From Clostridia bacterium (GTDB taxonomy: Bacteria; Bacillota; Clostridia; Christensenellales; Borkfalkiaceae): DNA of 64,000 bases. Positions within the stretch are counted from its first letter, which is position 1. Every line of letters starts with the position of its first letter. A model generated the notes under the pieces. The model was not told where the DNA came from, did not search any database, and was given only the letters and a program-made list of their open reading frames with translations. Made by a program: the position numbers and the translations under genes. The DNA is taken from assembly GCA_014805025.1 (NCBI GenBank), contig JAAUYR010000039.1, forward strand, positions 256 to 64,255, given 5' to 3'. Shown here in pieces: positions 2,250-54,680 of the stretch.

Positions 2250-3626
2250 TCAGTCGCGTTTTCTGTTTGCTCTTTTAACAAAATAAACAATCAACACCAC
2301 CGCTCCGCTTACAACATATATCGGCAGTCCCAGAATCGGTAGCGCTAATAAAAGTACTGCAAAAATTATAAATAGAAGCACAATAACGGAAAGATTTCCG
2401 GAGTCATATTCCGGCTCTTCCACCGCGCACATTGTAAAGCTAAGCTCGCCTTCGGGCAGGGCGTCCAAAAGCAATTTATAGCCGCTGTCGGTCTTTTCGA
2501 ATTCGAAGTAGCTGTCCAAAATATAGTACGGAGTATTTACGCGAACTTCCAGCTCGCCGAAGCTGCTCCACTCCTTAGCCGGAGACAGCAGATATTCGAA
2601 CTCGTATTTGTAAGGCTTATAACTTGTTATAATGCGCGGATACAATGGCGCGATAACCGTATTTAAACAGGTTGCGTGCGGTTCAAGGTTTAACTTGTAA
2701 ACGTACCAGCGCATAAACGAGCCTTCGTTAAACTCTGCAAAATGCAGGTCTACTATATCGCTGCCGGCAATACTTGATACGACCGCATTGTAATAGTCGA
2801 TATCCGAAACCTTGCTGCCCACGCTGCGGTACGAAAGCACGAACTCCTTAAACAGAGTTTGGGTTGTAGCCGTCAGCTTCGCCGAAGCGTTTATGACTTT
2901 CGTCCCGTTGGTAAACTGCCATTTAAGCGTAGATAAATCGACCTCGCCGCCGATAGAATAAAACCTGAATTTTTCGCCGCTGATTAAATAATTTTTTAAA
3001 GTTACCGTTTTGCCGTTTGAGGAGTAATATCCGTAACCAGCATACTTTATATTTTTGTCGCGAACGAAAGTCGCCTCCACCTCAACCGCGTCGCGTAAAC
3101 CGGCGGTAACGGTAAACTCGTACGTATAAACGGTTTTGTCTTCGGTAAAGAATTTATCGGTTATAAAACCGTCGTAAATTTTGTTGCTGTCGGAAGTAAA
3201 ATCAAAGCGGCTGTAACTTACGGTATGCCTGAGCTCCGCATCTGCGGAAACTCCGTCTATCGTAACCCCGAATTTATCGGTATCAAAATCGTCGCAGTAG
3301 CTTGGCGGATACCCGAACGGAAACGCAAGCGTCGCCTCGATTTGGCTGTCGGTAGGGTTTTTAAAGACGTACTGCGCCGTAACCTTGCCCTTATAATCTT
3401 CCGAAACGTTTAATTCGGGAAATTCCGGCACGTCGAATGTCAATAATTCGCTTTCGACTTCTAACGGGCAGTTTTCACCCGTAAACGTCGCGCCGGCGAA
3501 CGTAGTGCCGTACCAGTTTTTCGGCCCGGAATTTGCGCTTGCCGTAATATTTGGCGCTAAAAACGATATAAGCGCTGCCGCGGCAAGTCCGCAAGCAGCC
3601 AGATACGGTTTGATTTTACTTTTCAT
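2250..3626 (-). CDS. Exported protein with a C-terminal membrane anchor, unknown function
   Basis: Signal peptide KPYLAACGLAAAALISFLAPNITASA and a C-terminal TM helix followed by KRANRKRD. The start is set at ATG 3626, just downstream of a consensus promoter. Confidence 0.6.
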   Translation of the reverse strand: MKSKIKPYLAACGLAAAALISFLAPNITASANSGPKNWYGTTFAGATFTGENCPLEVESELLTFDVPEFPELNVSEDYKGKVTAQYVFKNPTDSQIEATLAFPFGYPPSYCDDFDTDKFGVTIDGVSADAELRHTVSYSRFDFTSDSNKIYDGFITDKFFTEDKTVYTYEFTVTAGLRDAVEVEATFVRDKNIKYAGYGYYSSNGKTVTLKNYLISGEKFRFYSIGGEVDLSTLKWQFTNGTKVINASAKLTATTQTLFKEFVLSYRSVGSKVSDIDYYNAVVSSIAGSDIVDLHFAEFNEGSFMRWYVYKLNLEPHATCLNTVIAPLYPRIITSYKPYKYEFEYLLSPAKEWSSFGELEVRVNTPYYILDSYFEFEKTDSGYKLLLDALPEGELSFTMCAVEEPEYDSGNLSVIVLLFIIFAVLLLALPILGLPIYVVSGAVVLIVYFVKRANRKRD

Positions 3627-3635
3627 AGCTCTTTT

Positions 3636-3664
3636 ATTATACTTAAATAACCACATTTTGTCAA
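3636..3664 (-). promoter_or_regulatory. Consensus promoter TTGACA-17-TATAAT, with the ATG 9 nt after the -10
   Basis: -35 at 3659-3664, -10 at 3636-3641, ATG at 3626. Confidence 0.65.
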
Positions 3665-22716: not shown

Positions 22717-23631
22717 TTAACCGCCTAACTCAATCATTCGCTCGATACATTTAACCGATTGTTGCCTTTCCTGCTCGTCAATAATTATTTCTTCGCCGCC
22801 CTCGCCAAGAATACAGTTTAAAACGTCGGGAAGCGTGGTAATTTTCATATTATGGCACAATAAATCTTTGGAAAGCGGATAAAACCGCTTTTCGGGGCAC
22901 TTATACTGCAAATGCTCTACAATTGCGTTTTCCGTGCCTATTATAAACTCTTTGGCCTCGGAGTTTATTGCAAAATCCATTATCCCAGACGTCGAGCCGA
23001 CGTAGTCTGCAAGCTTTACGACCTCCGGACGGCACTCGGGGTGCACCAAAAACAGCGCGTTCGGGTGCGCGGCTTTTGCTTTAAGCACGTCCGATTTTTC
23101 CATTTTAGCGTGCGTAGGGCAGCCGCCCGACAAAAGCTTGAAGTTCTTTTCGGGAACCTGTTCTTTTACGTAAGTGCCGAGGTTGATATCGGGAATGAAC
23201 AATATGTTCTTTTCGGGCATTGCGCGGCAGATTTTAACCGCGCTTGACGAGGTTACGCAAACGTCGGCTATGGTTTTAAGCTGAGCCGTGGTGTTCACGT
23301 ACGCGACCACCGCGTAATCGGGGTACATTTTTTTGACCTCGGCAATTACCTCTCTATCCATCTGCTCCGCCATAGGACAGCCGGCCTGAGGGTTTGCAAG
23401 ATAAACGCGCTTTTCGGGCGCGAGCATTTTAACCGTTTCCGCCATGAACCGCACGCCGCACATAATAACGGTGCTCTGTTTTGCAGTTTTAGCCTTTAAC
23501 GCAAGTGCGTAGCTGTCGCCCGTGAAATCAGCAACCTCGCAAATATCTTCCGACATATAGCTGTGCGCCAGAATACATATATCGCGCTCGGCTTTGAGCT
23601 TTAAAATTTTCTGTTGTAAATCTTTAACCAT
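22717..23631 (-). CDS. nadA: Quinolinate synthase
   Basis: ILAHSYM, CGVRFMAE and HPEC motifs. Length is 304 aa from MVKDLQQ. Confidence 0.9.
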   Translation of the reverse strand: MVKDLQQKILKLKAERDICILAHSYMSEDICEVADFTGDSYALALKAKTAKQSTVIMCGVRFMAETVKMLAPEKRVYLANPQAGCPMAEQMDREVIAEVKKMYPDYAVVAYVNTTAQLKTIADVCVTSSSAVKICRAMPEKNILFIPDINLGTYVKEQVPEKNFKLLSGGCPTHAKMEKSDVLKAKAAHPNALFLVHPECRPEVVKLADYVGSTSGIMDFAINSEAKEFIIGTENAIVEHLQYKCPEKRFYPLSKDLLCHNMKITTLPDVLNCILGEGGEEIIIDEQERQQSVKCIERMIELGG

Positions 23632-23643
23632 ATAGCTTTTTAG

Positions 23644-23672
23644 ATTATACACGAAAGCTTTTATTTTGTCAA
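23644..23672 (-). promoter_or_regulatory. Consensus promoter TTGACA-17-TATAAT, with the ATG 12 nt after the -10
   Basis: -35 at 23667-23672, -10 at 23644-23649, ATG at 23631, no SD. Confidence 0.65.
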
Positions 23673-23805
23673 ACGTATAAAAAAAGCGGCGGCAAGAACT
23701 CACACGGGGTTAAAACCGACCGAAAATTAATAAACAAAAGATGCAAATTAAGAAACGGTTTTCAGGTCTAAACCGCCGTAAACGCAATATATTACGGGGG
23801 CAATT

Positions 23806-36622: not shown

Positions 36623-37480
36623 ATGAAAAATATCATACAAAATAAAACATTGGACGAAGAACGCGCGCTTTACGGCGTTTGCGATACTCTTATTAAAAAC
36701 TGCACTTTTGCAGGCGAGACAGACGGCGAATCGGCATTAAAGGAATGTAGAAATATCGGGGTGGAAAATTGCAGTTTTTCGCTGCGCTATCCTCTGTGGC
36801 ATGCAGAAAACTTTTACGTTAAGGACTGCAAAACCGACGCTTTTGCCCGTGCCGCGCTTTGGTTCTGCAAGGACGGAGAAATCACATTAAGCACGCTTGA
36901 AGGCATCAAGGTTTTACGCGAGTGCGAACGCATAACCGTGCGAAACTGCAACATATCCTCGCCCGAATCGTTTTGGAAGTGCAAAAACGTTACCTTGAAC
37001 GACTGCGAAATCATATCCGAATATTTACTTTTGGGCAGCAGCGATTTTAAGCTTAAAAACGTAAAGATGAGCGGCAAGTATTCCTTTCAATACGTAGAGA
37101 ACGGAGTAATAGAAAACAGTACCTTCGACACAAAGGACGCTTTCTGGAACAGTAAAAACGTTTACGTTAAAGACAGCGTTTTAAAAGGCGAGTACTTAGG
37201 CTGGTATTCAGACGGCTTAACGCTTGAAAACTGCGTGATATGCGGCACCCAACCGCTCTGTTACTGCAAAAATTTGAAGCTTATAAACTGCCGCACCGAG
37301 GGCTGCGATTTAGCTTTTGAAATGTCCGACGTGGAAGCAACCATAATCGGCGACGTGCTTTCCGTTAAAAACCCCAAAAGCGGATTTATAGAAGCCGACT
37401 TCGTGGGCGAAGTTATAAAAACCGCCGCTCCCTCCCCTTGCACCGGTAAAGTAATAATACGAAATAAAAAAGCAATTTAA
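36623..37480 (+). CDS. DUF3737-like beta-helix repeat protein
   Basis: ERALYG..NCTF..GESALKE..RYPLWH and repeated (V/I)xNC(x)F units. Confidence 0.55.
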   Translation: MKNIIQNKTLDEERALYGVCDTLIKNCTFAGETDGESALKECRNIGVENCSFSLRYPLWHAENFYVKDCKTDAFARAALWFCKDGEITLSTLEGIKVLRECERITVRNCNISSPESFWKCKNVTLNDCEIISEYLLLGSSDFKLKNVKMSGKYSFQYVENGVIENSTFDTKDAFWNSKNVYVKDSVLKGEYLGWYSDGLTLENCVICGTQPLCYCKNLKLINCRTEGCDLAFEMSDVEATIIGDVLSVKNPKSGFIEADFVGEVIKTAAPSPCTGKVIIRNKKAI

Positions 37481-37488
37481 AATTTTCA

Positions 37489-37521
37489 GGCGCCGCTAAG
37501 CATATTTTGCTTGGCGGCGCC
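37489..37521 (+). terminator. Terminator after the DUF3737 gene
   Basis: ggcgccgctaagc / atatttt / gcttggcggcgcc. Confidence 0.75.
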
Positions 37522-37530
37522 GTATTATAT

Positions 37531-37738
37531 TGTGGATAACTTTATGCTTATCCCCCTCTATGGGCGGCAATATGGCAAGTTTTCCACAAAAAGTTGTCCA
37601 CATTTTAATTGTGAATAGTATTTTACAATATATTATTTAAAAAATTTATCCACAATTTATCCACACGGGTGTTAAAATGATGTAAATTTCGACAATTTCA
37701 GTGTTAATTTTATAATATTTTAAAATATGTTATCCACA
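37531..37738. promoter_or_regulatory. DnaA-box cluster (four perfect and two one-mismatch boxes) with AT-rich tracts
   Basis: Perfect TTATCCACA boxes lie at 37531-37539 (minus strand), 37646-37654, 37657-37665 and 37730-37738. One-mismatch boxes are TTTTCCACA at 37580-37588 and TTGTCCACA at 37594-37602. Confidence 0.8.
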
Positions 37739-37744
37739 ATGTAT

Positions 37745-37777
37745 AGCGGCGGCAACCTTTTTAAGGTTGCCGCCGCT
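37745..37777 (-). terminator. Terminator after dnaJ
   Basis: agcggcggcaacctt / ttt / aaggttgccgccgct. Confidence 0.75.
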
Positions 37778-37795: not shown

Positions 37796-38938
37796 TCACT
37801 GTTTTTCAACCTTTTTGCCGTAAATTGCCGAAAGGTTGTTGGAATACTTCTGCATATTCTCGCAGGATTTCAAAGGCACGCACTCTTCGAAGTCTGCAAG
37901 CTTTTTGGTCTGCTCGCGCGAAAGCTTAGAAGGCACGTCTATTTCAACCGTCACGTAGAGGTTACCCGTACCGTTCACGGTCTTAACGCCCTTGCCGCGC
38001 ATACAGAACCTCGTGCCCGAAGCCGTGCATTCTGGAATACTCAATTCCAGCGTATCGTCTATGCCGGGCACTTGAATTTTGCCGCCCATAACCGCAGTTT
38101 TATAGGATATAGGCACGGTAACGTACAAGTCTCTGTCCTCGCGGCGCAGCATTTTGTGCGGCTCTATACGGAAGTAAACGTACAAATCGCCGCTTTCGCC
38201 GCCGTTCCCGGCCGCCTGACCGAAGCCGCGCTTTCTTAAACTGCTGTCCTTATCTACGCCCGCGGGTATATTTACGGTAAAGCTCGTTTCCTTTCTCTGA
38301 TAGCCCTTACCCTTGCAGTAGGGGCATTTATCCGTTATCTTCTTGCCCGTGCCGCCGCAGTCGGGGCAAGCGCCGACCTGTATCGTCCTGCCGAAAATAG
38401 TATCCTGCTGAAACTTTACTCTGCCGCTGCCGCCGCAACGCGAGCACTTCTGAAATGCAGTGCCGTCCTTAGCGCCCGTGCCGCCGCACGAAGTACACGG
38501 CTCGTTGCGCATATAGCTGACCGTCTTGGAACAGCCCTTGATAGCATCCAGAAAGGATAGATTTATAGTCTGCTCTATATCCGCGCCGCGCGGAGTTGAG
38601 GCCTCCGCTCTGCCGCCGAAGCCACCGAACATTGAACTTATGATATCCTCGAAGCCGCCCATGCCGCCCGAGAACCCACCCGAAAAACCTCCGAACGGAT
38701 TTCCGCCGCCCATACCGGGGTGTTCAAGCTCGTAGTCGTACTGCTTGCGCTTGTTCTCGTCTGAAAGTACTTCGTTGGCCTCGTTTATCTCTTTGAACTT
38801 CTCGGCAGCCGCCGCATCGCCGGGATGAAAGTCGGGGTGATACTGCTTTGCAAGCTTTCTGTAAGCCGACTTGATTTCGTCCGCCGAAGCCGTCTTGGAA
38901 ACGCCGAGAATATCGTAATAATTTTTCTTATCCGCCAT
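37796..38938 (-). CDS. dnaJ: Molecular chaperone DnaJ
   Basis: J domain with HPD, a G/F-rich linker and four CxxCxGxG zinc motifs. Confidence 0.95.
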
Positions 38939-39014: not shown

Positions 39015-40811
39015 TTAAGAATGCTGATTAAACTCAGTACCGTCGTCGCCGCCGGGATTACCGCCGTTTGCCGCACCCTGAGCCTGTTGATACATCTTTG
39101 CTACTACGGGCTGAACTTCGTTTGTCAGAGTTTCCATAGCCGCCTTAATGCGGTCGTTATCGTCCGATTCAAGCTCGGTCTTAGCCTTTGCAACCGCGTC
39201 CTCTATCGTCTTTTTATCTTCGTCCGAAAGCTTGTCGCCGGCCTCTTTAACCGTCTTTTCAAGGTTATCTATCATACCTTCGAGGTTGTTTTTGTTGTCG
39301 ACCGCCTCTTTACGCTTCTTGTCCTCTTCGGCGTATTTCTCGGCGTCCTTAACGGCCTTGTCGATATCCTCTTCGGAAAGGTTCGTTGAAGCGGTTATCG
39401 TTATATTAGTACTCTTACCCGTACCCAAATCTTTTGCGGTAACGTTCACAATGCCGTTTGCGTCCACGTCGAAAGTAACCTCTATCTGAGGCACGCCGCG
39501 AGGTGCGGGGGGAATATCCGTAAGCATGAACTTGCCGAGCGACTTATTGTCACGCGCGAACTTTCTTTCACCCTGCAAAACGTTGATTTCAACGCCGGGC
39601 TGATTATCTGCCGCCGTAGAGAAAACCTGGCTCTTCTTAACGGGAATAGTCGTGTTCCTTTCGATAAGCGGAGTCGAAACGCCGCCCAAGGTTTCAATGC
39701 CGAGGGTTAAGGGCATAACGTCGAGCAAAAGCACATCCTTAACTTCGCCGGAAAGCACGCCGCCCTGAATTGCCGCGCCGATAGCGACGCACTCGTCGGG
39801 GTTGATGCCCTTGAAAGGCTCTTTACCGGTAACCTGCTTAACCTTATCGAATACGGCGGGGATACGCGTAGAGCCGCCCACCATTATAACCTTTGAAATA
39901 TCTCCGTACGAAAGCCCAGCGTCCTGCATAGCCTTTCTCATAGGCTCAACCGTGCGCTCTACGAGGTCTTTGGTTAAGCTGTCGAACTTCTGCTTTGAAA
40001 TATCTATATCGAGGTGCTGAGGCGCGCCGTCTACAACCGTAATGAACGGAAGGTTGACGTTGGTCGTGCTCATACCGGAAAGCTCTATCTTAGCCTTTTC
40101 AGCGGCCTCTTTAAGCCTCTGCATAGCCATCTTATCCTTGGAAAGGTCAACGCCCGTTTCCTTTTTGAAGCTCTCCACAAGGTAGTCCATAACTTTCTGG
40201 TCGAAGTCGTCGCCGCCGAGGTGAGTATCGCCGTTGGTTGCCAGAACTTCGAATACGCCGTCGCCGATTTCGAGAATGGAAACGTCGAACGTACCGCCGC
40301 CAAGGTCGTAAATCATTACCTTCTGGCTGCCTTCCTGCTTATCGAGGCCGTATGCAAGCGCCGCCGCCGTAGGCTCGTTTATAATACGCAGAACGTTGAG
40401 GCCGGCAATTTTACCCGCATCCTTGGTTGCCTGGCGCTGGCTGTCGTTGAAGTATGCCGGGCAGGTTATAACCGCGTCGGTCACCTTGCCGCCGAGGTAG
40501 CTTTCCGCGTCGGCTTTAAGCTTTGAAAGCACCATTGCGGAAATTTCCTGAGGCGAAAATCCCTTATCGATATTTACTTTATACGATTCGCCCATATGAC
40601 GCTTTATGGAAATAACCGTCTTGTCGGGCTGAGCTACGGCAAGTCTTTTTGCCGCCTGACCGACAACGCGGCTTCCGTCCGCCTTGAACGATACGACCGA
40701 GGGCGTGGTTCTGTTGCCCTCGCTGTTAGCTATTACGACGGGCTCGCCGCCTTCCATTACCGCTACGCACGAGTTGGTCGTGCCTAAATCTATACCTATT
40801 ACCTTTCCCAT
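39015..40811 (-). CDS. dnaK: Molecular chaperone DnaK (Hsp70)
   Basis: [17 protein letters not shown] and the other Hsp70 signatures. Length is 598 aa. Confidence 0.97.
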
Positions 40812-40837: not shown

Positions 40838-41365
40838 TCAAACGGTTACGGTAACCTGCGCAAAACGGATTACCTTGTCCCCCGATTTATATCCTTTCTT
40901 TAAAACCTGCTTTACGGTGTTGGGCTTCTCGCCGTCCTCGCAAGGGAAGTTCATTATAGCTTCCATCTCGCTTTCATCGAAGGGCGCGCCGGCCGATATT
41001 GCAATTTCCTCGACGCCAAGCGAGCTTAAAACGGTTGTAAAGCTTTTAATTACCTTTTCAATGCCTGCCCTGGTCTTTTCGTCGCTTGCGCCGTCAAGCG
41101 CGTAACCGAAGTTATCCGCAACCGGCAAAAGCTTTAAAATTGCTTCCGCCGCGCCGTCTGCGTACGCCTTGGATACTGCCGCAGTGTTGCGCTTTCTGTA
41201 ATTGTCATACTCGGCAGAAACGGAATACCATTTGCGCTTATAGTCCTCTGCAAGCGCCTGAGCCTTTTCAAGTTCGGAAGATTCTTTCTCGGAAGGTTCG
41301 CTTTCGACAACCTCTTCCGCTACGGCTTCCTCTGTTTTGATTTCTTCTTTCTTTTTAGCCATCAC
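40838..41365 (-). CDS. grpE: Nucleotide exchange factor GrpE
   Basis: Acidic N-terminus and RKR..E GrpE motifs. It lies upstream of dnaK. Confidence 0.9.
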   Translation of the reverse strand: MMAKKKEEIKTEEAVAEEVVESEPSEKESSELEKAQALAEDYKRKWYSVSAEYDNYRKRNTAAVSKAYADGAAEAILKLLPVADNFGYALDGASDEKTRAGIEKVIKSFTTVLSSLGVEEIAISAGAPFDESEMEAIMNFPCEDGEKPNTVKQVLKKGYKSGDKVIRFAQVTVTV

Positions 41366-41472
41366 AAATTCCTGTAACTTTTTAATCTACAATATTAATA
41401 TAAAGCTTTATTTCCCCCGTTAAACAAAAAAGTAACATTTTTTTATTTAAAATTTATTGTCGCGCTTCCGGC

Positions 41473-41501
41473 TTGACACCGCGCCGCCTTTATTCTATAA
41501 T
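41473..41501 (+). promoter_or_regulatory. Consensus promoter TTGACA-17-TATAAT, with the ATG 10 nt after the -10
   Basis: -35 at 41473-41478, -10 at 41496-41501, ATG at 41512. The ORF-track TTG start is the -35 hexamer itself. Confidence 0.65.
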
Positions 41502-41511
41502 TTTTAACCGA

Positions 41512-42216
41512 ATGAAATTACGAAATCCTTTTAAAAGCTTAACCAAATTCGAGTGGGCGCTTTGGATATGCTCGCTTGCCGCGGTTATAATATCTTTTTT
41601 TGCAGCGCGCAATACCGACTACGCAACACTCGCCGTATCTCTTATCGGCGTAACCTCGCTGATATTCGCCGCAAAGGGCGACCCGTTCGGGCTGATGATT
41701 ATGCTGGTATTCAGTCTTACCTACGCGTTCGTTTCGTACTGCTTCGGCTACTACGGTGAAATGATAATTTACCTTTGTATGCAGTTGCCCGTCTGTATTA
41801 CCTCGCTCGTAAGCTGGCTTAAACACCCTGCAAAAGAGGGCGGCGGTGAGGCCAAAGTTGGCAGTTTGCCCCCCAAGTATGCCGTAGTTATGTGTGTTTT
41901 GGCGGCGGCGGTAACAACTGCGTTCTACTTTATTCTGCGTGCGTTCAATACCGCGAATCTTATCGTAAGCACCCTGTCCGTAGGCACAAGTTTTATTGCG
42001 TTATACCTTATGGTATTCCGCGTTCCGGCGTACGCCGCGGCGTTCACGCTGAACGATATAGTGCTAATAGTTTTATGGTCGTTTGCCTGCGTGCAGTCGC
42101 TCAACTACATACCAATGGTCGTGTGTTTTACCGTATTCCTCATTAACGACATTTACGGCTTCATAAGCTGGACGCGCCGAAAGAAAAAACAAAACGAAAA
42201 GCCGTCGGAAGAATAA
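41512..42216 (+). CDS. pnuC: Nicotinamide riboside transporter PnuC
   Basis: 7-TM protein with a PnuC-like C-terminus (NDIYGFISW). It is adjacent to the NAD genes. Confidence 0.75.
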   Translation: MKLRNPFKSLTKFEWALWICSLAAVIISFFAARNTDYATLAVSLIGVTSLIFAAKGDPFGLMIMLVFSLTYAFVSYCFGYYGEMIIYLCMQLPVCITSLVSWLKHPAKEGGGEAKVGSLPPKYAVVMCVLAAAVTTAFYFILRAFNTANLIVSTLSVGTSFIALYLMVFRVPAYAAAFTLNDIVLIVLWSFACVQSLNYIPMVVCFTVFLINDIYGFISWTRRKKKQNEKPSEE

Positions 42217-42230
42217 GCTTCCGACGGCTT

Positions 42231-42740
42231 TTAAATTTCTATTAAAAATCCCTTTTCTCTGAGCTTTGTTTCAATTGCGTTTAAAACTTCCTCGCTCGGC
42301 GCGGAAACGGTGTGGTAGTGATATCCGTCCGTTACGCTCATAAGCGGCTTTGACGCGCCAGAAACAAGCGAGCGGTACAGCTCCTCGACGTGCGTTCGGT
42401 TGTATAAATCCAGCCTCGCCGAAATTCTGCCGTAGACCCTGTGGTTTACAAAAATGTCCTCAACCTTGCCGCCAAGCTCTATAATCAAAACGCCCTCGTC
42501 CACTATCTCGTCAAAGGTATGCCGACATTTAAACACCCTTGACGCCTGAACTTTTACGTTTAAAACGTATCCCCTGTTAGTGGACGTTATATCGTAGCCG
42601 CCGGCCCTTAAAACGGCTATATCCTGCACTATAACCTGTCTTGAAACGTTAAAGCGCTCCTTTAAAACGTTAGCCGGAATGGGGTTATCGGTGTTGCCCA
42701 AAAGGCTTAAAATTTCCTCGCGCCGTTTTTCCGCCTTCAT
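42231..42740 (-). CDS. niaR: NAD-biosynthesis transcription repressor NiaR (HTH_11 plus 3H domain)
   Basis: N-terminal wHTH and a 3H domain with conserved His residues (CRHT, VNHR, GYHYHT). It is co-operonic with nadBC. Confidence 0.8.
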   Translation of the reverse strand: MKAEKRREEILSLLGNTDNPIPANVLKERFNVSRQVIVQDIAVLRAGGYDITSTNRGYVLNVKVQASRVFKCRHTFDEIVDEGVLIIELGGKVEDIFVNHRVYGRISARLDLYNRTHVEELYRSLVSGASKPLMSVTDGYHYHTVSAPSEEVLNAIETKLREKGFLIEI

Positions 42741-43585
42741 TTCTCCTCCACGGGCTTTAAGTTTTTAAGCGATAAATCGAGTATCGGCGCGGAATGAGTA
42801 AGCGCTCCGCTCGATACGAAATCGACTCCGCAGTCTATTATGTTTTTAATGTTCTCGCGAGTAACGTTGCCGCTGCACTCGGTAAGCGCCCTGCCGCCTA
42901 TAAGCTTAACCGCCGCCTTCATTTCGGCGGGCGACATATTGTCAAGCATTATAATATCCGCACCGGCCTCTACCGCCTCGCGACACATTTCCAGGTTTTC
43001 CACTTCCACTTCAACCTTGTGCACGAACGAGCAATAGCTTTTAGCCGCAAGCACGGCCTCCTTAACGCCGCCGGCAGCGCCGATATGGTTGTCTTTAAGC
43101 ATTACCCCGTCCGATAAATTGTATCGGTGGTTGTTTCCTCCGCCGACCTTTACGGCGTATTTTTCGAATATCCTCATATTCGGAGTAGTCTTGCGCGTAT
43201 CTAAAAGCTTGGTCTTACTGCCCTTTAAAAGCGCGGCAACCTCCGCGGTATAAGTTGCTATTCCGCTCATTCTTTGAAGATAATTCAAAGCCGTGCGCTC
43301 GCCCGATAAAAGCACGCGGATATCGCCCGTTAGTGTGGCAATATGCTGGCCTTTCGCCACTTTTTCGCCGTCGTTCACATAGAACTCAAACTGCGTGTTT
43401 TTATCCAGAATTTCAAAGGTATGCGCAAAAACTTCCAGTCCGCAGATTATGCCGTCCTGCTTGCATATGAGCTGAACGGTACCCTTTTTATATTCCTTGA
43501 TTACCGAGTTCGTGCTTATGTCCTCGCTCGTTATATCCTCTTTAAGCGCAAGCCTTATCAGCTCGTCCATATTACTGTTAAACAC
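42737..43585 (-). CDS. nadC: Nicotinate-nucleotide pyrophosphorylase (carboxylating)
   Basis: ERTALN, LDTRKT, HRYNLSD and IMLDNM motifs. Confidence 0.92.
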   Translation of the reverse strand: MFNSNMDELIRLALKEDITSEDISTNSVIKEYKKGTVQLICKQDGIICGLEVFAHTFEILDKNTQFEFYVNDGEKVAKGQHIATLTGDIRVLLSGERTALNYLQRMSGIATYTAEVAALLKGSKTKLLDTRKTTPNMRIFEKYAVKVGGGNNHRYNLSDGVMLKDNHIGAAGGVKEAVLAAKSYCSFVHKVEVEVENLEMCREAVEAGADIIMLDNMSPAEMKAAVKLIGGRALTECSGNVTRENIKNIIDCGVDFVSSGALTHSAPILDLSLKNLKPVEEK

Positions 43586-44879
43586 CGTCCGCCTCCTTAA
43601 TGGCTTTTTTAAGAATTTCCTTTAAACTTTCAAGCAGTTTTTCCGGGTCGGAATATTCCTGCATATCCAGCTTATTTGCGACATATTCGGCACCCAATTT
43701 GTCAAACGCCTTAAAATTTCCGCCTATATCCTTGCCTGCGCGCTCGGCAAACAGCAAGCTTTCCAAAAGCGAGTTCGAAGCAAGTCTGTTTGCGCCGTGC
43801 ACGCCGTTGCAGCAGGTTTCGCCGACTGCGTAAAGCCTGTTCATTGTGGTCTTGCCGTCGAGGTCGCTTCTTATTCCACCCATAAAATAATGCTGAGCCG
43901 GAACAACCGGTATGCACTCTTTAAACACGTCGTAGCCCTCGCTTGCGCAGTGCTCTACGATTCCGGGGAAGTGCTCGCGCACCTCGGCCTCGTCGATAGT
44001 CCGCATATCCAGCCAGACGTGTTTCGTGCCGTCCTTTTTCATCTGTTTTGTAATTTCCGCCGTAACCACGTCGCGCGGCTGCAACTCGTCGGTAAACCGC
44101 TTAAAGTTCTTATCCAGCAATACCGCGCCCTCGCCGCGAACCGATTCAGAAATCAAAAAGCTTCTGCCGCCCTTTTCCGAATACAGCGTTGTGGGGTGTA
44201 TCTGAACGTAGTTCACGTTGTCTACCGCAACTCCGCGCTTTATGGCAATTGCCACGCCGTCGCCCGTCAAAAGACGGAAGTTTGTGGAGTGCTCGTAAAT
44301 GCCGCCTATTCCGCCGCAGGCGAGAACGGTATAGCTTGAAAAAATCTTTAAAACCTTGCCGCTTGCGTTTTCAAGCGCGACAATTCCGAAGCACTCGCCG
44401 TTGTCGGAAATAATATCCAGCATCGTAACTTCGGGCGCAATCTCTACGTTTTTAAGCTTTTCAACGCTCTGCATGAGCCGGGTTGTAATTTCCTTGCCCG
44501 TGCAGTCCTTATGAAAGCATATGCGGTTTCTGGAATGTCCGCCTTCGCGTGTCGCGGCAAGCGTGCCGTCCGCGTTTCGCGCAAAGTCCACTCCAAGCTC
44601 CAAAAGCCCGTCTATAACCTCGGGCGAGGATTTAATCATGCACTCGACCGCGGCAGGGTTATTTTCCGAATGCCCGGCGCGCATTGTGTCGGCAAAGTAG
44701 CTTTCGTAGTCCTCTTCCCCCTGCAAACGGCATATGCCGCCCTGGGCAAGATAGCTGTCGCTCTTTTCGGGCTTGCCCTTGCAGATTAAAAGTATTTTTT
44801 TGTCGCGCGGCAGGTGCAGCGCCGCGTTAAGCCCGGCAACCCCTGCGCCCACGATAATTACGTCGTAAACCTTTTCCAT
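43578..44879 (-). CDS. nadB: L-aspartate oxidase
   Basis: FAD motif DVIIVGAGVAGL and GANRLASNSLLE. The start is set at MEKVYD. Confidence 0.9.
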   Translation of the reverse strand: MEKVYDVIIVGAGVAGLNAALHLPRDKKILLICKGKPEKSDSYLAQGGICRLQGEEDYESYFADTMRAGHSENNPAAVECMIKSSPEVIDGLLELGVDFARNADGTLAATREGGHSRNRICFHKDCTGKEITTRLMQSVEKLKNVEIAPEVTMLDIISDNGECFGIVALENASGKVLKIFSSYTVLACGGIGGIYEHSTNFRLLTGDGVAIAIKRGVAVDNVNYVQIHPTTLYSEKGGRSFLISESVRGEGAVLLDKNFKRFTDELQPRDVVTAEITKQMKKDGTKHVWLDMRTIDEAEVREHFPGIVEHCASEGYDVFKECIPVVPAQHYFMGGIRSDLDGKTTMNRLYAVGETCCNGVHGANRLASNSLLESLLFAERAGKDIGGNFKAFDKLGAEYVANKLDMQEYSDPEKLLESLKEILKKAIKEADGV

Positions 44880-44902
44880 ATTATTCCCTGATATTATATG
44901 CA

Positions 44903-44931
44903 AGTTTACACTAAAACTTTACACCTGTCAA
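44903..44931 (-). promoter_or_regulatory. Candidate nadB promoter TTGACA-17-TAAACT
   Basis: -35 at 44926-44931, -10 at 44903-44908. It overlaps TTTAC repeats and a GTTTACA/TGTAAAC inverted repeat (44904-44944). Confidence 0.45.
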
Positions 44932-45041
44932 GTCATATGTAAACTTTACGCCGATTTTTTTCAAATCGACAAAATTATAATTTTTTTTGCGTGCTTTTAG
45001 CGGCAACGCCGAAATACTATAAAGACGTAAGGAGTAAAATT

Positions 45042-45554
45042 ATGAAAGTATCAGATTTTTACGGCAAAAAAGTCGTCAGTACCGCTGGTAAAAGGGGTTA
45101 CGTCGTTTCGGTGAACGCAAGCGCGGAAAAGGTAGAGTGTTTAATCTGCGCGGACTCGGACGAAAACGAGTTTATGGTAGACGTCAACAACGTCGTACGC
45201 ATAGGCGACACCAAAATTATTTACGATGACCGGGAAACCGCTATGCGCCAGGCAAAGCCCGTGCGCCTTGGCAGCTTATGCTTTGACGAAAGCGGAAACT
45301 ATCTCGGCACGCTTTGCGACTATTTGTTTAACAACCGCGGCTTACAGAAAGCAAAAATCGGCAAAAAAAATTACCCCGCCGAAAGAGTGATTTCCGGCGA
45401 CGTAATTATCGTTAAAGATATTAAAACCGTTAAAAGCGACGTCTTAAAGGACGGCAAAATTTTGATTAAAAAGGGCACGCCCGTAACCGAAGAGGTTTTA
45501 AAGACGGCCGAATCCGAGGGCGAGTACGTTCAGCTTACAATGAAAAGCATTTAA
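45042..45554 (+). CDS. PRC-barrel domain protein (two YlmC/YmxH-like modules)
   Basis: SDFYGKKVVS..GKRGYV and a second LGSLCFDESGNYLG module. AAGGAG SD. Confidence 0.55.
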   Translation: MKVSDFYGKKVVSTAGKRGYVVSVNASAEKVECLICADSDENEFMVDVNNVVRIGDTKIIYDDRETAMRQAKPVRLGSLCFDESGNYLGTLCDYLFNNRGLQKAKIGKKNYPAERVISGDVIIVKDIKTVKSDVLKDGKILIKKGTPVTEEVLKTAESEGEYVQLTMKSI

Positions 45555-46174
45555 ACGTTATACTTTGCCATAAGCTTTAAAAGAGTATTGAAATTATCGT
45601 TTAAAATATCCGACTCCGCAGGGGAAAGCGAGCCCTTTATCTGCAAAACCGCAAGGGTGTTTTTAAGCTTTTCCAGCTCCTGCCTGTCGCTTTTGCCGAG
45701 GTTCTTAGACAAAAGTTTATCGGTTACCGAAACGGCGTGCTCCAACCGCACGCTGTTTTTTGCCGCATGAACTTCGGGGTGCTGGGCCTTGGGCGGAGCA
45801 GGAGCGGCAACCTGCGGTAGCGCCGCCGCAATCGCGGGGGCCTCCACCTGCCGTATCTTTGCGGAAGTTTTGGAAACCGCACACAGCGCGCCGTACAATA
45901 AATACCCTATCACCCAGAAAAGCGCGGTAATCAAAACGGACTGCGCAAACTCGCACTTTAACAGGAACAAAGCGAGATTGACCGCGGCATATGCGTTAGT
46001 TAAGCACAAAAACGGGCGTTTGGAAAGTTGCTTTACCTTCCTCAATTTAAGCGAAAGTATAAAGCTTATCAAAAAGATAGCGGCAAACGACCCCCATACC
46101 GTCCATACGAGCGCGTCAAAGGGAATTTTAGCAACCAAAGCGTAAATTTTATTTGCAAATTCAGATAACATCAC
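45551..46174 (-). CDS. Hypothetical membrane protein
   Basis: Three predicted N-terminal TM helices, an Ala/Pro-rich linker and a helical C-terminus. No family recognised. Confidence 0.5.
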   Translation of the reverse strand: MMLSEFANKIYALVAKIPFDALVWTVWGSFAAIFLISFILSLKLRKVKQLSKRPFLCLTNAYAAVNLALFLLKCEFAQSVLITALFWVIGYLLYGALCAVSKTSAKIRQVEAPAIAAALPQVAAPAPPKAQHPEVHAAKNSVRLEHAVSVTDKLLSKNLGKSDRQELEKLKNTLAVLQIKGSLSPAESDILNDNFNTLLKLMAKYNV

Positions 46175-52815: not shown

Positions 52816-53973
52816 ATGAAAAAACCCGTAGCGTTAATTGCCGTGGCACTTGCGGCAAGCTGTACTCTGACCTTTACGGCCTGCGGCGGAAGCACTAAAA
52901 ACAACGCCGCGCTCAGCTCGAACTGGTACGCGAACACAGCTTTCAAATATATTCAGCCCACCATTACCGAGGGCAACGAAAACTTTACCGCAACCGAAGG
53001 CGCGGAAAAAATAACCTATAAAGTTTCGTATCAGGCTCCCGAAATCGGCAACGGCACTTACGAGGTAAACTACCCCGGCAACAACACTTACACGACGGAG
53101 TTTTACGCAAAAACTTTCGTTGTAAGCGCTTTGACCGACGGAGATTACAGGTCGGGCTATCCTTCCAAGGCCGGCTTTACCGCGTACTACTATAAAACGG
53201 TTTTGGATATTCAGACGATAACCTATAAACTGAAAGCCTCCGGCGAAGAAAAGAGCTTCGAGGGCGACAAGGTTGTAACGGAGTGCTACTTTATGCCCGT
53301 CGGCGATTATTTAAGGCCGCTGTACTCCAAACAGACGGTAAAGAGCACCTCTCCTGCCAACCTTCAAGCAAACGCTCTTGAAAACGGCAATGCGTACAAG
53401 CTTATAGAAAGCGAATACGAAAACTTTTACAGTTACGACGGAAAATCGGCTAAATCCGTTAAAAAAGATATTTTAACGGGCGAAACCACAGTTACAGTAA
53501 ACAATAACCTCGGCGACTGCAAAAACTCGCTTTTCGATTTCACTTCGCTGAATATCGTAGCAAGGGCAACCAACCTCACCACAAGTCTTTCGCAGGTTTT
53601 AAGCCTGTATTCGCCCGAAAGCGGAGTTCAGAACTACACTTTGACAGGTTCCGACACCCCCTTATCCACGGACGAGAGCACGGCGGCAACGCTTAAAACC
53701 GATTTTGAGAACAAGCTTTACGAAAAAGGTCTTTTCAAGCGCGTAAACGACAACGAGGGCAACCCCGTAGGTCTTAAAACCATTGCGGTAAGCGTTTTAT
53801 ACGGCGGCGAAAAATCGGGAGTTTCACAAACCTACTGGTTTGCGGCAATCGATAACGCGGCAAACAACACGGGCAGAACCACACTGCTTAAAATGTCCGT
53901 ACCGCTCACTTATAACCTCGGCACTTTAAACTATACTTTGCAGAGCTTTGAAAGCACTCTTTGGAATAAATAA
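52816..53973 (+). CDS. Lipoprotein of unknown function
   Basis: Lipobox LTFTACGG. Thr/Asn/Tyr-rich beta-type sequence. Confidence 0.6.
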   Translation: MKKPVALIAVALAASCTLTFTACGGSTKNNAALSSNWYANTAFKYIQPTITEGNENFTATEGAEKITYKVSYQAPEIGNGTYEVNYPGNNTYTTEFYAKTFVVSALTDGDYRSGYPSKAGFTAYYYKTVLDIQTITYKLKASGEEKSFEGDKVVTECYFMPVGDYLRPLYSKQTVKSTSPANLQANALENGNAYKLIESEYENFYSYDGKSAKSVKKDILTGETTVTVNNNLGDCKNSLFDFTSLNIVARATNLTTSLSQVLSLYSPESGVQNYTLTGSDTPLSTDESTAATLKTDFENKLYEKGLFKRVNDNEGNPVGLKTIAVSVLYGGEKSGVSQTYWFAAIDNAANNTGRTTLLKMSVPLTYNLGTLNYTLQSFESTLWNK

Positions 53974-53975
53974 TT

Positions 53976-54680
53976 ATGCCTCCTAAAGTTTTCGGGTGGC
54001 AACACCTTGTATATCTTGCAATATTCATAGCCGTTTCGGCAGGCGCGATAGTTGCTATCAAGCTGAAAGTAAAGAGCGAAAAGACGCTGGATATTATAAT
54101 TAAAAGTCTCGGCGGCGCTTTGCTTGTGCTTTTGGTATGGAACAGAATTGCAATCTGCATACACAAAAACAACTGGCTTATGCTTCTGCCGGACAGTTTT
54201 TGCGGCGTTTCCAGCCTCTGTATGGGAATTTGCGCGATTTTCTGCAAGCGCGACGCTCTGCCCTTCCACTACCTTGTATACATTGCGGTGTTCGGCGGCG
54301 CGGCCAACGATTTGTTCCCCTACTACCTGGGACAAGCCGATTACTTTATGTACCCGGCGACGATTTCCGGTATGCTGCACCACAGCTTATCGCTGGATAT
54401 CGGGCTTATAATGCTGCTTACGGGCTACTTCAAGCCCTGCCTTAAAAAGCTTTACGCGTTCCCCCTGGGCGTATGCTTTACGATGGTGTTCGGCATATTC
54501 CTTGTGGACGCGCTCAAATTCGAAACGGCGATGTACATTTACTCGCCTTTGGTAGGCCCTTTGACCTGGTATATGGTATTCCCTGCGGTGACGGCGGCGC
54601 TTTACGGAGCATTGTTCTTATACGAAAAGGTAATACTGCCTAAGATTACAGCTAAAAAACAAACCGGCGCGAGCGATTAA
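53976..54680 (+). CDS. Integral membrane protein, unknown function (possibly YwaF/TIGR02206-like)
   Basis: Six or seven predicted TM helices. Its start lies 2 nt after the lipoprotein gene's stop codon. Confidence 0.55.
   Translation: MPPKVFGWQHLVYLAIFIAVSAGAIVAIKLKVKSEKTLDIIIKSLGGALLVLLVWNRIAICIHKNNWLMLLPDSFCGVSSLCMGICAIFCKRDALPFHYLVYIAVFGGAANDLFPYYLGQADYFMYPATISGMLHHSLSLDIGLIMLLTGYFKPCLKKLYAFPLGVCFTMVFGIFLVDALKFETAMYIYSPLVGPLTWYMVFPAVTAALYGALFLYEKVILPKITAKKQTGASD

What the first reader, a model, noticed from the sequence alone, without database searches (positions are those of the whole stretch)
37531..37738. Dense DnaA-box cluster with an origin-like layout, far from any dnaA gene
A 208-bp non-coding stretch lies between two convergent terminators (37489-37521 and 37745-37777).
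- It holds four perfect TTATCCACA boxes at 37531-37539 (minus strand), 37646-37654, 37657-37665 and 37730-37738.
- It also holds two one-mismatch boxes: TTTTCCACA at 37580-37588 and TTGTCCACA at 37594-37602.
- The tandem pair at 37646/37657 is spaced 11 bp start to start. It is followed by a GC-rich hexamer (cgggtg) and about 60 bp of very AT-rich DNA. This coarsely mirrors the box / GC-cluster / AT-rich organisation of bacterial unwinding modules.
- No dnaA or dnaN is in the window, and most genes on both sides are on the minus strand. That argues against this being the chromosomal oriC.

Candidate roles are a DnaA-titrating locus (like E. coli datA or the B. subtilis DnaA-box clusters), a DnaA-controlled regulatory site, or a relic or secondary origin.
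Basis: partly seen in the sequence, partly recalled or inferred. Interest (0 to 1): 0.7.

Follow-up and report, generated by a model that had tools for sequence, protein, structure and literature searches.

The report
Conserved DnaA-box array beside dnaJ
A 220-bp non-coding stretch carries six binding sites for the replication initiator DnaA at fixed spacing next to dnaJ in at least 56 related uncultured gut Clostridia; it is not the chromosome origin and most likely acts as a decoy or control site that holds DnaA.

Summary
All four perfect TTATCCACA boxes of the 64-kb window lie at 37531-37738, together with the two one-mismatch boxes.

The cluster is a discrete module of about 220 bp.
- It is conserved in at least 56 of 80 species-level relatives (uncultured Christensenellales/Borkfalkiaceae MAGs).
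- It nearly always sits between the 3' end of dnaJ and DUF3737 or a MATE gene.
- Box spacing is almost invariant: 48/49, 14, 52, 11 and 72/73 bp.
- Individual boxes keep their own variants, and A-tracts precede three of them, while the spacers are nearly randomised.
- Its orientation has flipped repeatedly between the same neighbours.
- GC skew has the same sign on both sides in the window and in 30 of 31 relatives, and no dnaA is nearby, so it is neither oriC nor the terminus.

The "origin-like" details are specific to this genome or absent. I found no conserved DnaA-trios, GC cluster, promoter, RNA structure or ORF. One extra motif is conserved, TTTCGACA, the reverse complement of the Spo0A box.

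Best reading: an autonomous, orientation-independent, high-affinity DnaA-binding array. Its kind is already known from the B. subtilis DnaA-box clusters and is functionally comparable to E. coli datA. Its function is inferred, not shown.

The parts
37524..37742 (+). Whole conserved DnaA-box module (profile match)
   Evidence: An nhmmer profile built from 44 related modules matches here with 136.9 bits, E = 4e-40. It is the only full-length match in the window.
37531..37539 (-). Box 1: perfect TTATCCACA, the only box on the opposite strand. It forms the left arm of the terminal inverted repeat with box 6.
   Evidence: Perfect in 35 of 41 relatives. Inverted repeat 37518-37540 / 37729-37751, 23 nt, 83% complementary. 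In relatives the perfect repeat is 9-15 nt.
37540..37579 (.). Spacer 1: variable sequence of fixed length, relatively G+C-rich
   Evidence: 50% G+C here; family mean 42%. No conserved fold, mean z = -0.5. Box 1 to box 2 is 48 or 49 bp in 40 of 40.
37580..37588 (+). Box 2: TTTTCCACA here
   Evidence: In relatives it is perfect in 19 and has one mismatch in 21 of 40.
37594..37602 (+). Box 3: TTGTCCACA, a conserved non-consensus variant 14 bp after box 2 and preceded by AAAAAG
   Evidence: TTGTCCACA in 22 of 40 relatives. Spacing of 14 bp in 39 of 40.
37603..37645 (.). Spacer 3: very A+T-rich, ending in an A-tract
   Evidence: 9.3% G+C here; family mean 23%. Box 3 to box 4 is 52 bp in 39 of 40.
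37646..37654 (+). Box 4: perfect, preceded by an A-tract
   Evidence: Perfect in 22 and one mismatch in 15 of 40 relatives.
37657..37665 (+). Box 5: perfect here but a weak variant in most relatives, 11 bp after box 4
   Evidence: In relatives the commonest forms are TTATTAACA (10), TTATCAACA (8) and perfect (5). Spacing of 11 bp in 36 of 36.
37687..37694 (+). TTTCGACA motif, the reverse complement of the Spo0A-box core TGTCGAA(A)
   Evidence: TTCGACA with at most 1 mismatch occurs in 38 of 49 modules in this orientation and 1 of 49 in the other. Exact TTCGAC occurs in 26 of 49, nearly always at one of two positions about 10 bp apart. The 0A-box core comes from PMC3485338 and PMC5295017. Binding was not tested.
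37689..37716 (+). Sigma-70-like promoter match (TCGACA-16-TATAAT) pointing at box 6 and the dnaJ hairpin. It is specific to this genome.
   Evidence: 11 of 12 matches. Across 48 modules the best forward score averages 7.65 against 7.54 in shuffles, so it is not a conserved feature.
37730..37738 (+). Box 6: perfect, preceded by an A-tract; the right arm of the terminal inverted repeat
   Evidence: Perfect in 28 of 40 relatives. Box 5 to box 6 is 72 or 73 bp in 36 of 36. Box 4 to box 6 is 83 or 84 bp.
37489..37521 (+). Terminator hairpin of the DUF3737 gene. A neighbour, not part of the module.
   Evidence: 14-pair stem with a T-rich tail; -30.1 kcal/mol. A hairpin on this side is not conserved in relatives.
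37745..37777 (-). Hairpin after dnaJ. A neighbour, not part of the module.
   Evidence: -29.8 kcal/mol. In relatives the strong hairpin stays on the dnaJ side whichever way the module points.
37796..38938 (-). dnaJ, last gene of the grpE-dnaK-dnaJ operon; the conserved neighbour
   Evidence: TIGR02349 392 bits. DnaK at 39015-40811 and GrpE at 40838-41365.
36623..37480 (+). DUF3737 gene, the other neighbour, present in about half of the relatives
   Evidence: PF12541, E = 1e-107. Synteny table.

Best explanation
The stretch is a self-contained array of about 220 bp holding six DnaA boxes. It is a non-origin DnaA-box cluster (DBC), inherited vertically at one chromosomal site in a family-level clade of gut Christensenellales.

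Proposed mechanism (inferred):
- DnaA binds the strong boxes 1, 4 and 6, with box 2 often as strong.
- Binding spreads cooperatively to the tuned weaker sites: box 3 (TTGTCCACA) and box 5, which lies 11 bp from box 4.
- Boxes 3, 4, 5 and 6 lie on one face of the helix. Their start-to-start distances are 52, 63 and 136 bp, about 5, 6 and 13 turns.
- Phased A-tracts and A+T-rich spacers pre-bend the DNA, so one compact, long-lived DnaA oligomer can form.
- The complex acts in trans. It holds DnaA, possibly DnaA-ATP preferentially, away from oriC until the locus is duplicated, and so damps or times initiation.
- This is what was shown for B. subtilis DBCs and proposed for E. coli datA.
- Because it works through the protein it binds, its orientation and its neighbours do not matter.

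Shown here: the sequence architecture, its conservation, its independence of orientation, and its position inside a replichore.
Inferred: DnaA occupancy, cooperativity, bending and the effect on initiation.
For: Enrichment:
- 4 perfect boxes against 0.25 expected in 64 kb.
- In 1.22 Mb from 80 related loci, 140 of 147 perfect boxes lie inside the module, about 10.8 per kb against 0.006 per kb outside.

Conservation:
- The profile finds the module once per locus in 56 of 80 species loci and nowhere else in the window.
- An unbiased motif scan of metagenomes found 4 more copies in the same gene neighbourhood.

Selection on the boxes, not on the sequence between them:
- Spacings are invariant to within 1 bp.
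- Each box keeps its own variant, and AAAAAG flanks recur.
- Pairwise identity is 75% in boxes against 43% in spacers; 29% is the random expectation.

Autonomy:
- The neighbours stay the same (dnaJ, DUF3737 or MATE) but the orientation flips in several clades of the DnaJ tree.
- The dnaJ hairpin does not move with the module.
- There is no conserved promoter, RNA fold, Rfam family or ORF.

Not an origin or terminus:
- GC skew averages +0.070 on the left and +0.070 on the right, with the same sign in 30 of 31 loci and in the window.
- No dnaA in the window or in any locus.

Precedent:
- B. subtilis has six DBCs outside oriC. Deleting all six causes early initiation, and one reintroduced DBC rescues this at ectopic sites (PMC3245932).
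- B. subtilis DnaA binds such arrays cooperatively and with high affinity (PMC4447404).
Against: - No binding, occupancy or replication data exist for any of these uncultured organisms.
- The distance to oriC is unknown, because only 64 kb is in hand. Gene dosage matters for the B. subtilis effect.
- In B. subtilis only two of the six DBCs carry most of the effect, and a plasmid-borne DBC did not complement. A box cluster alone therefore does not guarantee a role in initiation control.
- Simple titration does not obviously need such exact spacing, a tuned weak box, or the conserved TTTCGACA motif. These hint at a more specific nucleoprotein function.
- In two species (L057, L060) the module ends about 12-16 bp before the MATE start codon. 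There it must also serve as promoter or leader DNA.
Confidence: 0.55

Rival explanations
1. Local cis-regulation. DnaA acts here as a transcription factor or roadblock for the adjacent genes. It could repress a promoter inside the module that reads into the MATE gene. It could also block read-through and antisense transcription between the converging dnaK operon and DUF3737.
For: - In genomes without DUF3737 the module is followed by the MATE gene, mostly with box 6 nearest to it (12 loci against 3). In L057 and L060 the module ends about 12-16 bp before the start codon.
- A subset of species, including the window, has a good TCGACA-16/18-TATAAT match just upstream of box 6.
- Several B. subtilis DBCs double as DnaA-regulated promoters: sda, ywlC, yydA.
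Against: - Across 48 modules promoter scores equal those of shuffles.
- Orientation relative to every neighbour flips.
- In the window and in more than 25 species both neighbours present their 3' ends to the module. No gene is left to regulate, yet the boxes and spacing are just as conserved.
Confidence: 0.2
2. A site that integrates DnaA with Spo0A or another regulator. The array, together with the conserved TTTCGACA site, would couple DnaA availability or local chromosome structure to stationary-phase or sporulation signalling. The precedent is the Spo0A boxes interleaved with DnaA boxes in B. subtilis oriC.
For: - TTCGACA (at most 1 mismatch) occurs in 38 of 49 modules in one orientation only, and exact TTCGAC, where present, nearly always sits at one of two positions about one helical turn apart.
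- The conserved core CGACA equals TGTCG, which contains the three bases contacted by Spo0A (PMC3485338).
- Spo0A boxes overlap DnaA boxes in B. subtilis oriC and affect chromosome copy number (PMC5295017).
- Some Christensenellales MAGs that group with Borkfalkiaceae carry spo0A (PMC11536998).
Against: - The presence of spo0A in this genome was not tested, and no sporulation gene lies in the window.
- Cultured Christensenella are described as non-spore-forming.
- The motif could instead be a -35-like element or the site of an unknown protein.
- 11 of 49 modules lack it.
Confidence: 0.12
3. A secondary, dormant or relic replication origin. DnaA bound at the tandem pair would melt the adjacent A+T-rich spacer.
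For: - A tandem pair of boxes 11 bp apart is followed by cgggtg and 58 bp of 15.5% G+C in the window.
- Spacers 3 and 5 are A+T-rich across the family, at 23% and 29% G+C.
Against: - There is no skew or gene-strand switch in the window or in 30 of 31 relatives.
- The dnaK operon would run head-on into forks leaving such an origin.
- No conserved DnaA-trios lie next to the pair, 3 of 44 as in shuffles. The G+C cluster is not conserved, with 43% G+C on average (BUS definition from PMC8287927).
- No dnaA, dnaN or other origin-linked gene is nearby.
- There is no similarity to plasmid or phage replicons.
Confidence: 0.04
4. A mobile or switchable element: either a miniature inverted-repeat element or a recombinase-driven invertible promoter (inverton).
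For: - The module is about 220 bp long, A+T-rich, and bounded by an inverted repeat. The repeat is 23 nt at 83% in the window and 9-15 nt perfect in relatives.
- Both orientations are found among species.
Against: - There is one copy per locus, always in the same neighbourhood, and no second copy in 64 kb or in 1.2 Mb of related loci.
- The inverted repeat is simply the outermost DnaA boxes.
- Orientation is stable between close relatives: L026/L028, L024/L031, L042/L043, L012/L013 and L015/L016.
- No recombinase was found among the ORFs scanned (most ORFs of at least 150 aa in the window).
Confidence: 0.03

Closest known systems
[quoted passage not shown]
   Same: - Intergenic clusters of consensus and near-consensus DnaA boxes in a Firmicute, away from dnaA.
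- They act, or are proposed here to act, by binding DnaA and restraining initiation.
- The effect does not depend on the expression of particular neighbouring genes (PMC3245932).
   Different: [quoted passage not shown]
- Here one module keeps its site, its box order, its spacing to within 1 bp and its box-specific variants across at least 56 species. It has also inverted repeatedly.
- There is no sequence homology.
- Function and distance from oriC are untested.
Escherichia coli datA
   Same: A non-coding locus with several high-affinity DnaA boxes that lowers initiation potential (as summarised in PMC3245932 and PMC4585315).
   Different: - datA is about 1 kb and depends on IHF.
- It promotes DnaA-ATP hydrolysis rather than merely binding DnaA.
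- It belongs to a different phylum and is not homologous.
- No IHF-type site was sought here, and no hydrolysis-promoting activity can be inferred.
Firmicute oriC basal unwinding system (tandem DnaA boxes + DnaA-trios + A+T-rich DNA)
   Same: A tandem pair of boxes 11 bp apart (boxes 4 and 5), with the stronger box upstream, is followed by A+T-rich DNA.
   Different: - No conserved run of 3'-GAT-5' trios and no conserved G+C cluster.
- No dnaA or dnaN linkage.
- No skew switch.
Spo0A boxes interleaved with DnaA boxes in B. subtilis oriC
   Same: A TGTCGAA-type motif is embedded among DnaA boxes.
   Different: - Here the motif is a separate site between boxes and does not overlap them.
- It lies outside oriC.
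- Spo0A binding, and even the presence of spo0A, are untested.
E. coli DARS1/DARS2
   Same: Short non-coding DnaA-box arrays in which one box is oriented opposite to the others.
   Different: - From general knowledge, the DARS core needs closely apposed, oppositely oriented boxes I and II.
- Here the only opposed pair (boxes 1 and 2) is 48-49 bp apart.
- There is no homology.

Membership tests
Chromosomal oriC | Replication-direction switch at the locus (GC-skew sign change, gene-strand divergence) | tested here: not met
   Skew is negative across the whole window. It has the same sign on both sides in 30 of 31 related loci. Genes on both sides are mostly on the same strand.
Chromosomal oriC | Linkage to dnaA/dnaN (the rule in Firmicutes) | tested here: not met
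   No DnaA signature in the six-frame translations of the window or of 80 loci. No dnaA or dnaN among the Pfam/NCBIfam-annotated ORFs.
Chromosomal oriC | Cluster of DnaA boxes | tested here: met
   Six boxes in 208 bp.
oriC basal unwinding system (BUS) | [quoted passage not shown] | tested here: not met
   Runs of 3 or more consensus trios occur in 3 of 44 modules downstream of box 5 and in 0-3 of 44 in the other configurations. This equals the shuffled controls. Definition from PMC8287927.
oriC basal unwinding system (BUS) | [quoted passage not shown] | not testable with these tools
   The window has 58 bp at 15.5% G+C; the family mean is 29%. Unwinding needs P1-nuclease or strand-separation assays.
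Non-oriC DnaA-box cluster (B. subtilis DBC type) | Several consensus or near-consensus DnaA boxes clustered in an intergenic region outside oriC | tested here: met
Non-oriC DnaA-box cluster (B. subtilis DBC type) | Stable DnaA binding in vivo (ChIP) | not testable with these tools
   The organisms are uncultured and no data are available.
Non-oriC DnaA-box cluster (B. subtilis DBC type) | Removal advances initiation; the effect scales with dosage or proximity to oriC | not testable with these tools
   This needs genetics and a complete genome. The position relative to oriC is unknown.
E. coli datA | IHF-dependent promotion of DnaA-ATP hydrolysis at a defined set of boxes | not tested
   No IHF-type site was searched for, and the biochemistry cannot be tested here. 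There is no sequence relationship.
DARS | Closely apposed, oppositely oriented boxes I and II, plus box III | tested here: not met
   The only opposed pair is 48-49 bp apart in 40 of 40 modules.
DnaA-regulated promoter (sda / dnaA / yydA type) | A promoter and a downstream gene in fixed relation to the boxes | tested here: not met
   Promoter scores equal shuffles. Orientation and downstream gene vary. A local exception is possible in L057 and L060.
Inverton / MITE | Multiple copies or sites (MITE); or an adjacent recombinase and mixed orientations within a population (inverton) | tested here: inconclusive
   Single copy at a single site, which argues against a MITE. No recombinase was found among the ORFs scanned. 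Heterogeneity within a population needs raw reads.

The most novel reading that the evidence does not exclude
The module is more than a passive sink. It would be a dedicated initiation-control cassette of gut Clostridia, built on a pre-bent, helically phased scaffold. That scaffold assembles a defined DnaA oligomer and also reads a second signal through the conserved TTTCGACA site, which may bind Spo0A~P or another regulator. It would be a clostridial functional counterpart of datA or DARS that couples DnaA activity to growth-phase or sporulation signalling. Because it is symmetric in function, it can invert freely.
Probability: 0.15. Interest if true: 0.7.

Novelty: new member of a known kind. 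Interest (0 to 1): 0.45.

Why it matters
Control of replication initiation outside oriC is understood in detail only in E. coli (datA, DARS). It is understood partly in B. subtilis, where the authors could not find what distinguishes effective DnaA-box clusters.

This module offers comparative data from at least 56 species:
- which boxes must be strong;
- which box is kept weak;
- which spacings are fixed;
- that orientation is free.

That is a ready-made set of design rules to test by EMSA, footprinting or transplantation into B. subtilis or C. difficile.

It also gives a landmark for a large, mostly uncultured gut lineage. It warns that origin finders based on DnaA-box density would mis-call oriC here.

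Tried and rejected
- **Small RNA:** the Rfam gathering scan found only a tRNA elsewhere. A permissive scan gave tsr25 at 34.6 bits against a gathering score of 63. That hit vanished when the sub-region was changed.
- **Conserved RNA or DNA fold in the spacers:** mean z was -0.2 to -0.5, so there is none.
- **Small ORFs:** only 29-36 aa ORFs that overlap the boxes, plus a 170-aa ORF antisense to dnaJ. I did not test them further; the non-conserved spacers argue against coding.
- **Conserved sigma-70 promoter:** rejected.
- **DnaA-trios / BUS:** rejected.
- **Plasmid or phage replicon:** no plasmid match, and only a 28-nt chance match in Campylobacter phages.
- **MITE:** single copy at a single site.
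- **L001 as an independent second sample:** it is 100% identical to the window over 17 kb, so it adds nothing.
- **Hairpins as part of the module:** they stay with dnaJ.
- **dnaA/oriC of this lineage:** I could not retrieve it.
- **Literature:** the held library has no report of a DnaA-box cluster linked to dnaJ.

Full report
**1. Observation**

The sequence is as described.
- TTATCCACA occurs four times in the 64-kb window, all between 37531 and 37738. One copy is on the minus strand and three are on the plus strand. The expectation is 0.25, and none of 100 shuffles reaches four.
- The two one-mismatch boxes at 37580 and 37594 are present.
- No other 208-bp stretch of the window holds more than two boxes with at most one mismatch.
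- The cluster lies in the 315-bp gap between a DUF3737 gene (36623-37480, +) and dnaJ (37796-38938, -). dnaJ is the last gene of a grpE-dnaK-dnaJ operon.
- Both flanking hairpins are very stable, about -30 kcal/mol. Only the left one scores as a canonical terminator.

**2. Source organism and related loci**

- A look-up of the DUF3737 protein returned one metagenome contig, L001. It is 100% identical to the window over 17 kb, so it is not independent.
- A scan of one genome per GTDB species with the DnaJ protein returned 80 loci at 73-92% amino-acid identity. All come from uncultured gut Clostridia labelled Christensenella, Christensenellaceae, Candidatus Borkfalkiaceae or Candidatus Coproplasma.

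**3. The cluster is a conserved module**

- In these loci the perfect boxes are almost all just downstream of dnaJ, and their spacings recur.
- Stacking the regions without gaps shows six boxes in register.
- A profile built from 44 modules finds one full-length match per locus in 56 of 80 loci. It finds one match in the window and none elsewhere. Several of the 24 loci without a match end within a few hundred bases of dnaJ, so 56 is a lower bound.
- Start-to-start distances in 41 species:

| Interval | Distance (bp) | Count |
|---|---|---|
| box 1 to box 2 | 48 or 49 | 40 of 40 |
| box 2 to box 3 | 14 | 39 of 40 |
| box 3 to box 4 | 52 | 39 of 40 |
| box 4 to box 5 | 11 | 36 of 36 |
| box 5 to box 6 | 72 or 73 | 36 of 36 |

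- Each position keeps its own box variant. Boxes 1, 4 and 6 are mostly perfect. Box 3 is TTGTCCACA in 22 of 40. Box 5 is usually a weak TTATYAACA. Boxes 3, 4 and 6 are preceded by AAAAAG.
- Spacer sequences are close to randomised. Pairwise identity is 43% in spacers against 75% in boxes, with 29% expected at random.
- Over 1.22 Mb of related loci, 140 of 147 perfect boxes lie inside the module.
- Boxes 3, 4, 5 and 6 are separated by 52, 63 and 136 bp. These are close to whole numbers of helical turns, so they face the same side of the helix. This step is inference from the distances.

**4. Context and orientation**

- The usual order is dnaJ, module, then a converging DUF3737 gene and a MATE transporter. 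Where DUF3737 is absent, the MATE gene follows directly.
- The profile assigns orientation unambiguously: 100-168 bits for most modules (37.8-96.6 bits for the weakest matches) against at most 28 bits on the other strand of the same site.
- The module points either way between the same neighbours. On a DnaJ neighbour-joining tree the two states are interleaved, which implies several independent inversions. Close relatives share the same state.
- The outermost boxes (1 and 6) form the terminal inverted repeat. It is 23 nt at 83% in the window and 9-15 nt perfect in relatives.
- The strong hairpin stays on the dnaJ side whichever way the module points.
- I also scanned metagenome contigs for the pattern box 2 - 14 bp - box 3 - 52 bp - box 4, a search that does not depend on dnaJ. 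It gave six hits. Four are the same module. One lies next to MATE, one between DUF3737 and dnaJ, and two lie beside the start of a V-type ATPase operon. That operon lies about 5 kb away in the window.

**5. Not an origin or a terminus**

- GC skew is negative across the whole window with no turning point at 37.5 kb.
- In 31 related loci with at least 6 kb on both sides, mean skew is +0.070 on the left and +0.070 on the right. The sign is the same in 30 of them.
- Genes on both sides run mostly the same way. The dnaK operon would be head-on to forks leaving this site.
- No DnaA signature occurs in the window or in any locus.
- Annotation of most of the longer ORFs shows ordinary metabolic, transport and repair genes.

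**6. The origin-like details do not hold up**

- The basal unwinding system is defined by DnaA boxes followed within 16 bp by at least three DnaA-trios of consensus 3'-GAT-5' (PMC8287927; the C. difficile example is in PMC7561715).
- Next to the box 4/5 pair, runs of three or more consensus trios occur in 3 of 44 modules, the same as in shuffled spacers.
- The seven bases after box 5 average 43% G+C, so there is no conserved G+C cluster.
- The window's very low G+C in spacers 3 and 5 (9% and 15.5%) is more extreme than the family means of 23% and 29%.

**7. Other readings tested**

- No Rfam family reaches threshold. A sub-threshold tsr25 hit was not reproducible.
- The spacers have no conserved fold.
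- ORFs in the gap are 29-36 aa and overlap the boxes, apart from a 170-aa ORF antisense to dnaJ.
- The window has a near-perfect promoter match, TCGACA-16-TATAAT, at 37689-37716. Across 48 modules the best forward promoter score (7.65) equals that of shuffles (7.54).
- There is no similarity to plasmids or phages.

**8. One extra conserved motif**

- In spacer 5, exact TTCGAC occurs in 26 of 49 modules, and TTCGACA with at most one mismatch in 38 of 49. It is almost always in the same orientation (38 of 49 against 1 of 49), and exact TTCGAC nearly always sits at one of two positions about 10 bp apart.
- The extended consensus is TTTTTCGACAAA.
- Its reverse complement, TTTGTCGAAAAA, contains the Spo0A-box core TGTCGAA. 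The most conserved part, CGACA, holds the three bases that Spo0A contacts (PMC3485338).
- In B. subtilis oriC, Spo0A boxes overlap DnaA boxes and affect chromosome copy number (PMC5295017).
- As a DnaA box the motif would carry a G at the conserved C6 position, so it is a poor box. This rests on established knowledge of the consensus TTWTNCACA.
- Some Christensenellales MAGs that group with Borkfalkiaceae carry spo0A (PMC11536998). I could not test this genome, and no sporulation gene lies in the window. The assignment is a lead, not a finding.

**9. Interpretation**

- What is conserved is a set of protein-binding sites with their spacing and helical phase.
- What is not conserved is sequence between the sites, orientation, any promoter, or any relation to a particular gene.
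- That pattern fits an element which works by the complex it assembles and acts in trans.
- The closest known kind is the non-oriC DnaA-box cluster of B. subtilis. There, deleting all six clusters advances initiation, and a single cluster reintroduced at ectopic sites rescues this in a dosage-dependent way (PMC3245932). E. coli datA is a functional analogue.
- The present module differs in being fixed in place and architecture over a whole clade. In Bacillus the clusters sit by different genes in each species, and no discriminating structure was found.
- I put 0.55 on a role as a trans-acting DnaA sink or regulator. I put 0.2 on mainly local regulation. This is plausible where the module abuts the MATE start, as in L057 and L060. 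I put 0.12 on a combined site for DnaA and a second regulator. A secondary origin or a mobile element gets a few per cent each.
- That DnaA binds here at all is close to certain from sequence, but it is still inference.

**10. Novelty**

- Non-origin DnaA-box clusters are a known kind, so this is a new member.
- It has unusual features: strict architecture, recurrent inversion and a Spo0A-box-like site.
- No report of a cluster linked to dnaJ was found in the held library.
- Interest is moderate. The element is a good comparative handle on the design rules of DnaA arrays, and a caution for origin predictors based on box density. Its function is unproven and the hosts are uncultured.

Noticed in passing
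L087:6374-6714 (JGI contig Ga0172376_10008584): In an unrelated organism with 27.8% G+C, 24 perfect TTATCCACA boxes stand head to tail with an alternating 12/13-bp period (TTATCCACAGAGTTATCCACATCCT...). A dnaK homologue lies about 1 kb away (one intervening ORF). This is a far denser DnaA-box array than any I know of. It may be a titration array or part of an origin.
   Followed up: partly
L083:1303-1471: A 3.4-kb metagenome contig (47% G+C) has eight DnaA boxes, four of them perfect, all on one strand within 170 bp. It is not the window's module and its context is unknown.
   Followed up: no
window 40838-41500: The grpE-dnaK-dnaJ operon has no hrcA gene upstream; a divergent pnuC gene sits there instead. 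No CIRCE element (TTAGCACTC-N9-GAGTGCTAA, up to 3 mismatches) occurs anywhere in the window. Heat-shock control here is therefore not of the HrcA/CIRCE type, at least locally.
   Followed up: partly
window 37518-37540 and 37729-37751; related loci: The module has inverted in place several times during the divergence of the clade, between inverted repeats that are little more than the outer DnaA boxes (9-15 nt). Whether this is slow illegitimate recombination or an active process is unknown.
   Followed up: partly
L057:11277-11474 and L060:11270-11466: In these two species the module ends about 12-16 bp before the start codon of the MATE transporter gene. The MATE promoter or leader must therefore overlap the DnaA boxes there.
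   Followed up: no
window 41473-44903: An NAD cluster lies just beyond the dnaK operon: pnuC, a NiaR-type regulator (HTH_11 + 3H), nadC and nadB. nadA is 14 kb to the left of the module, at 22717-23703. This is an ordinary observation.
   Followed up: no
window 2250-3656, 44991-46174, 52816-54680: Five ORFs of 187-468 aa have no significant Pfam (one has a sub-threshold PRC-barrel hit) or NCBIfam match.
   Followed up: no
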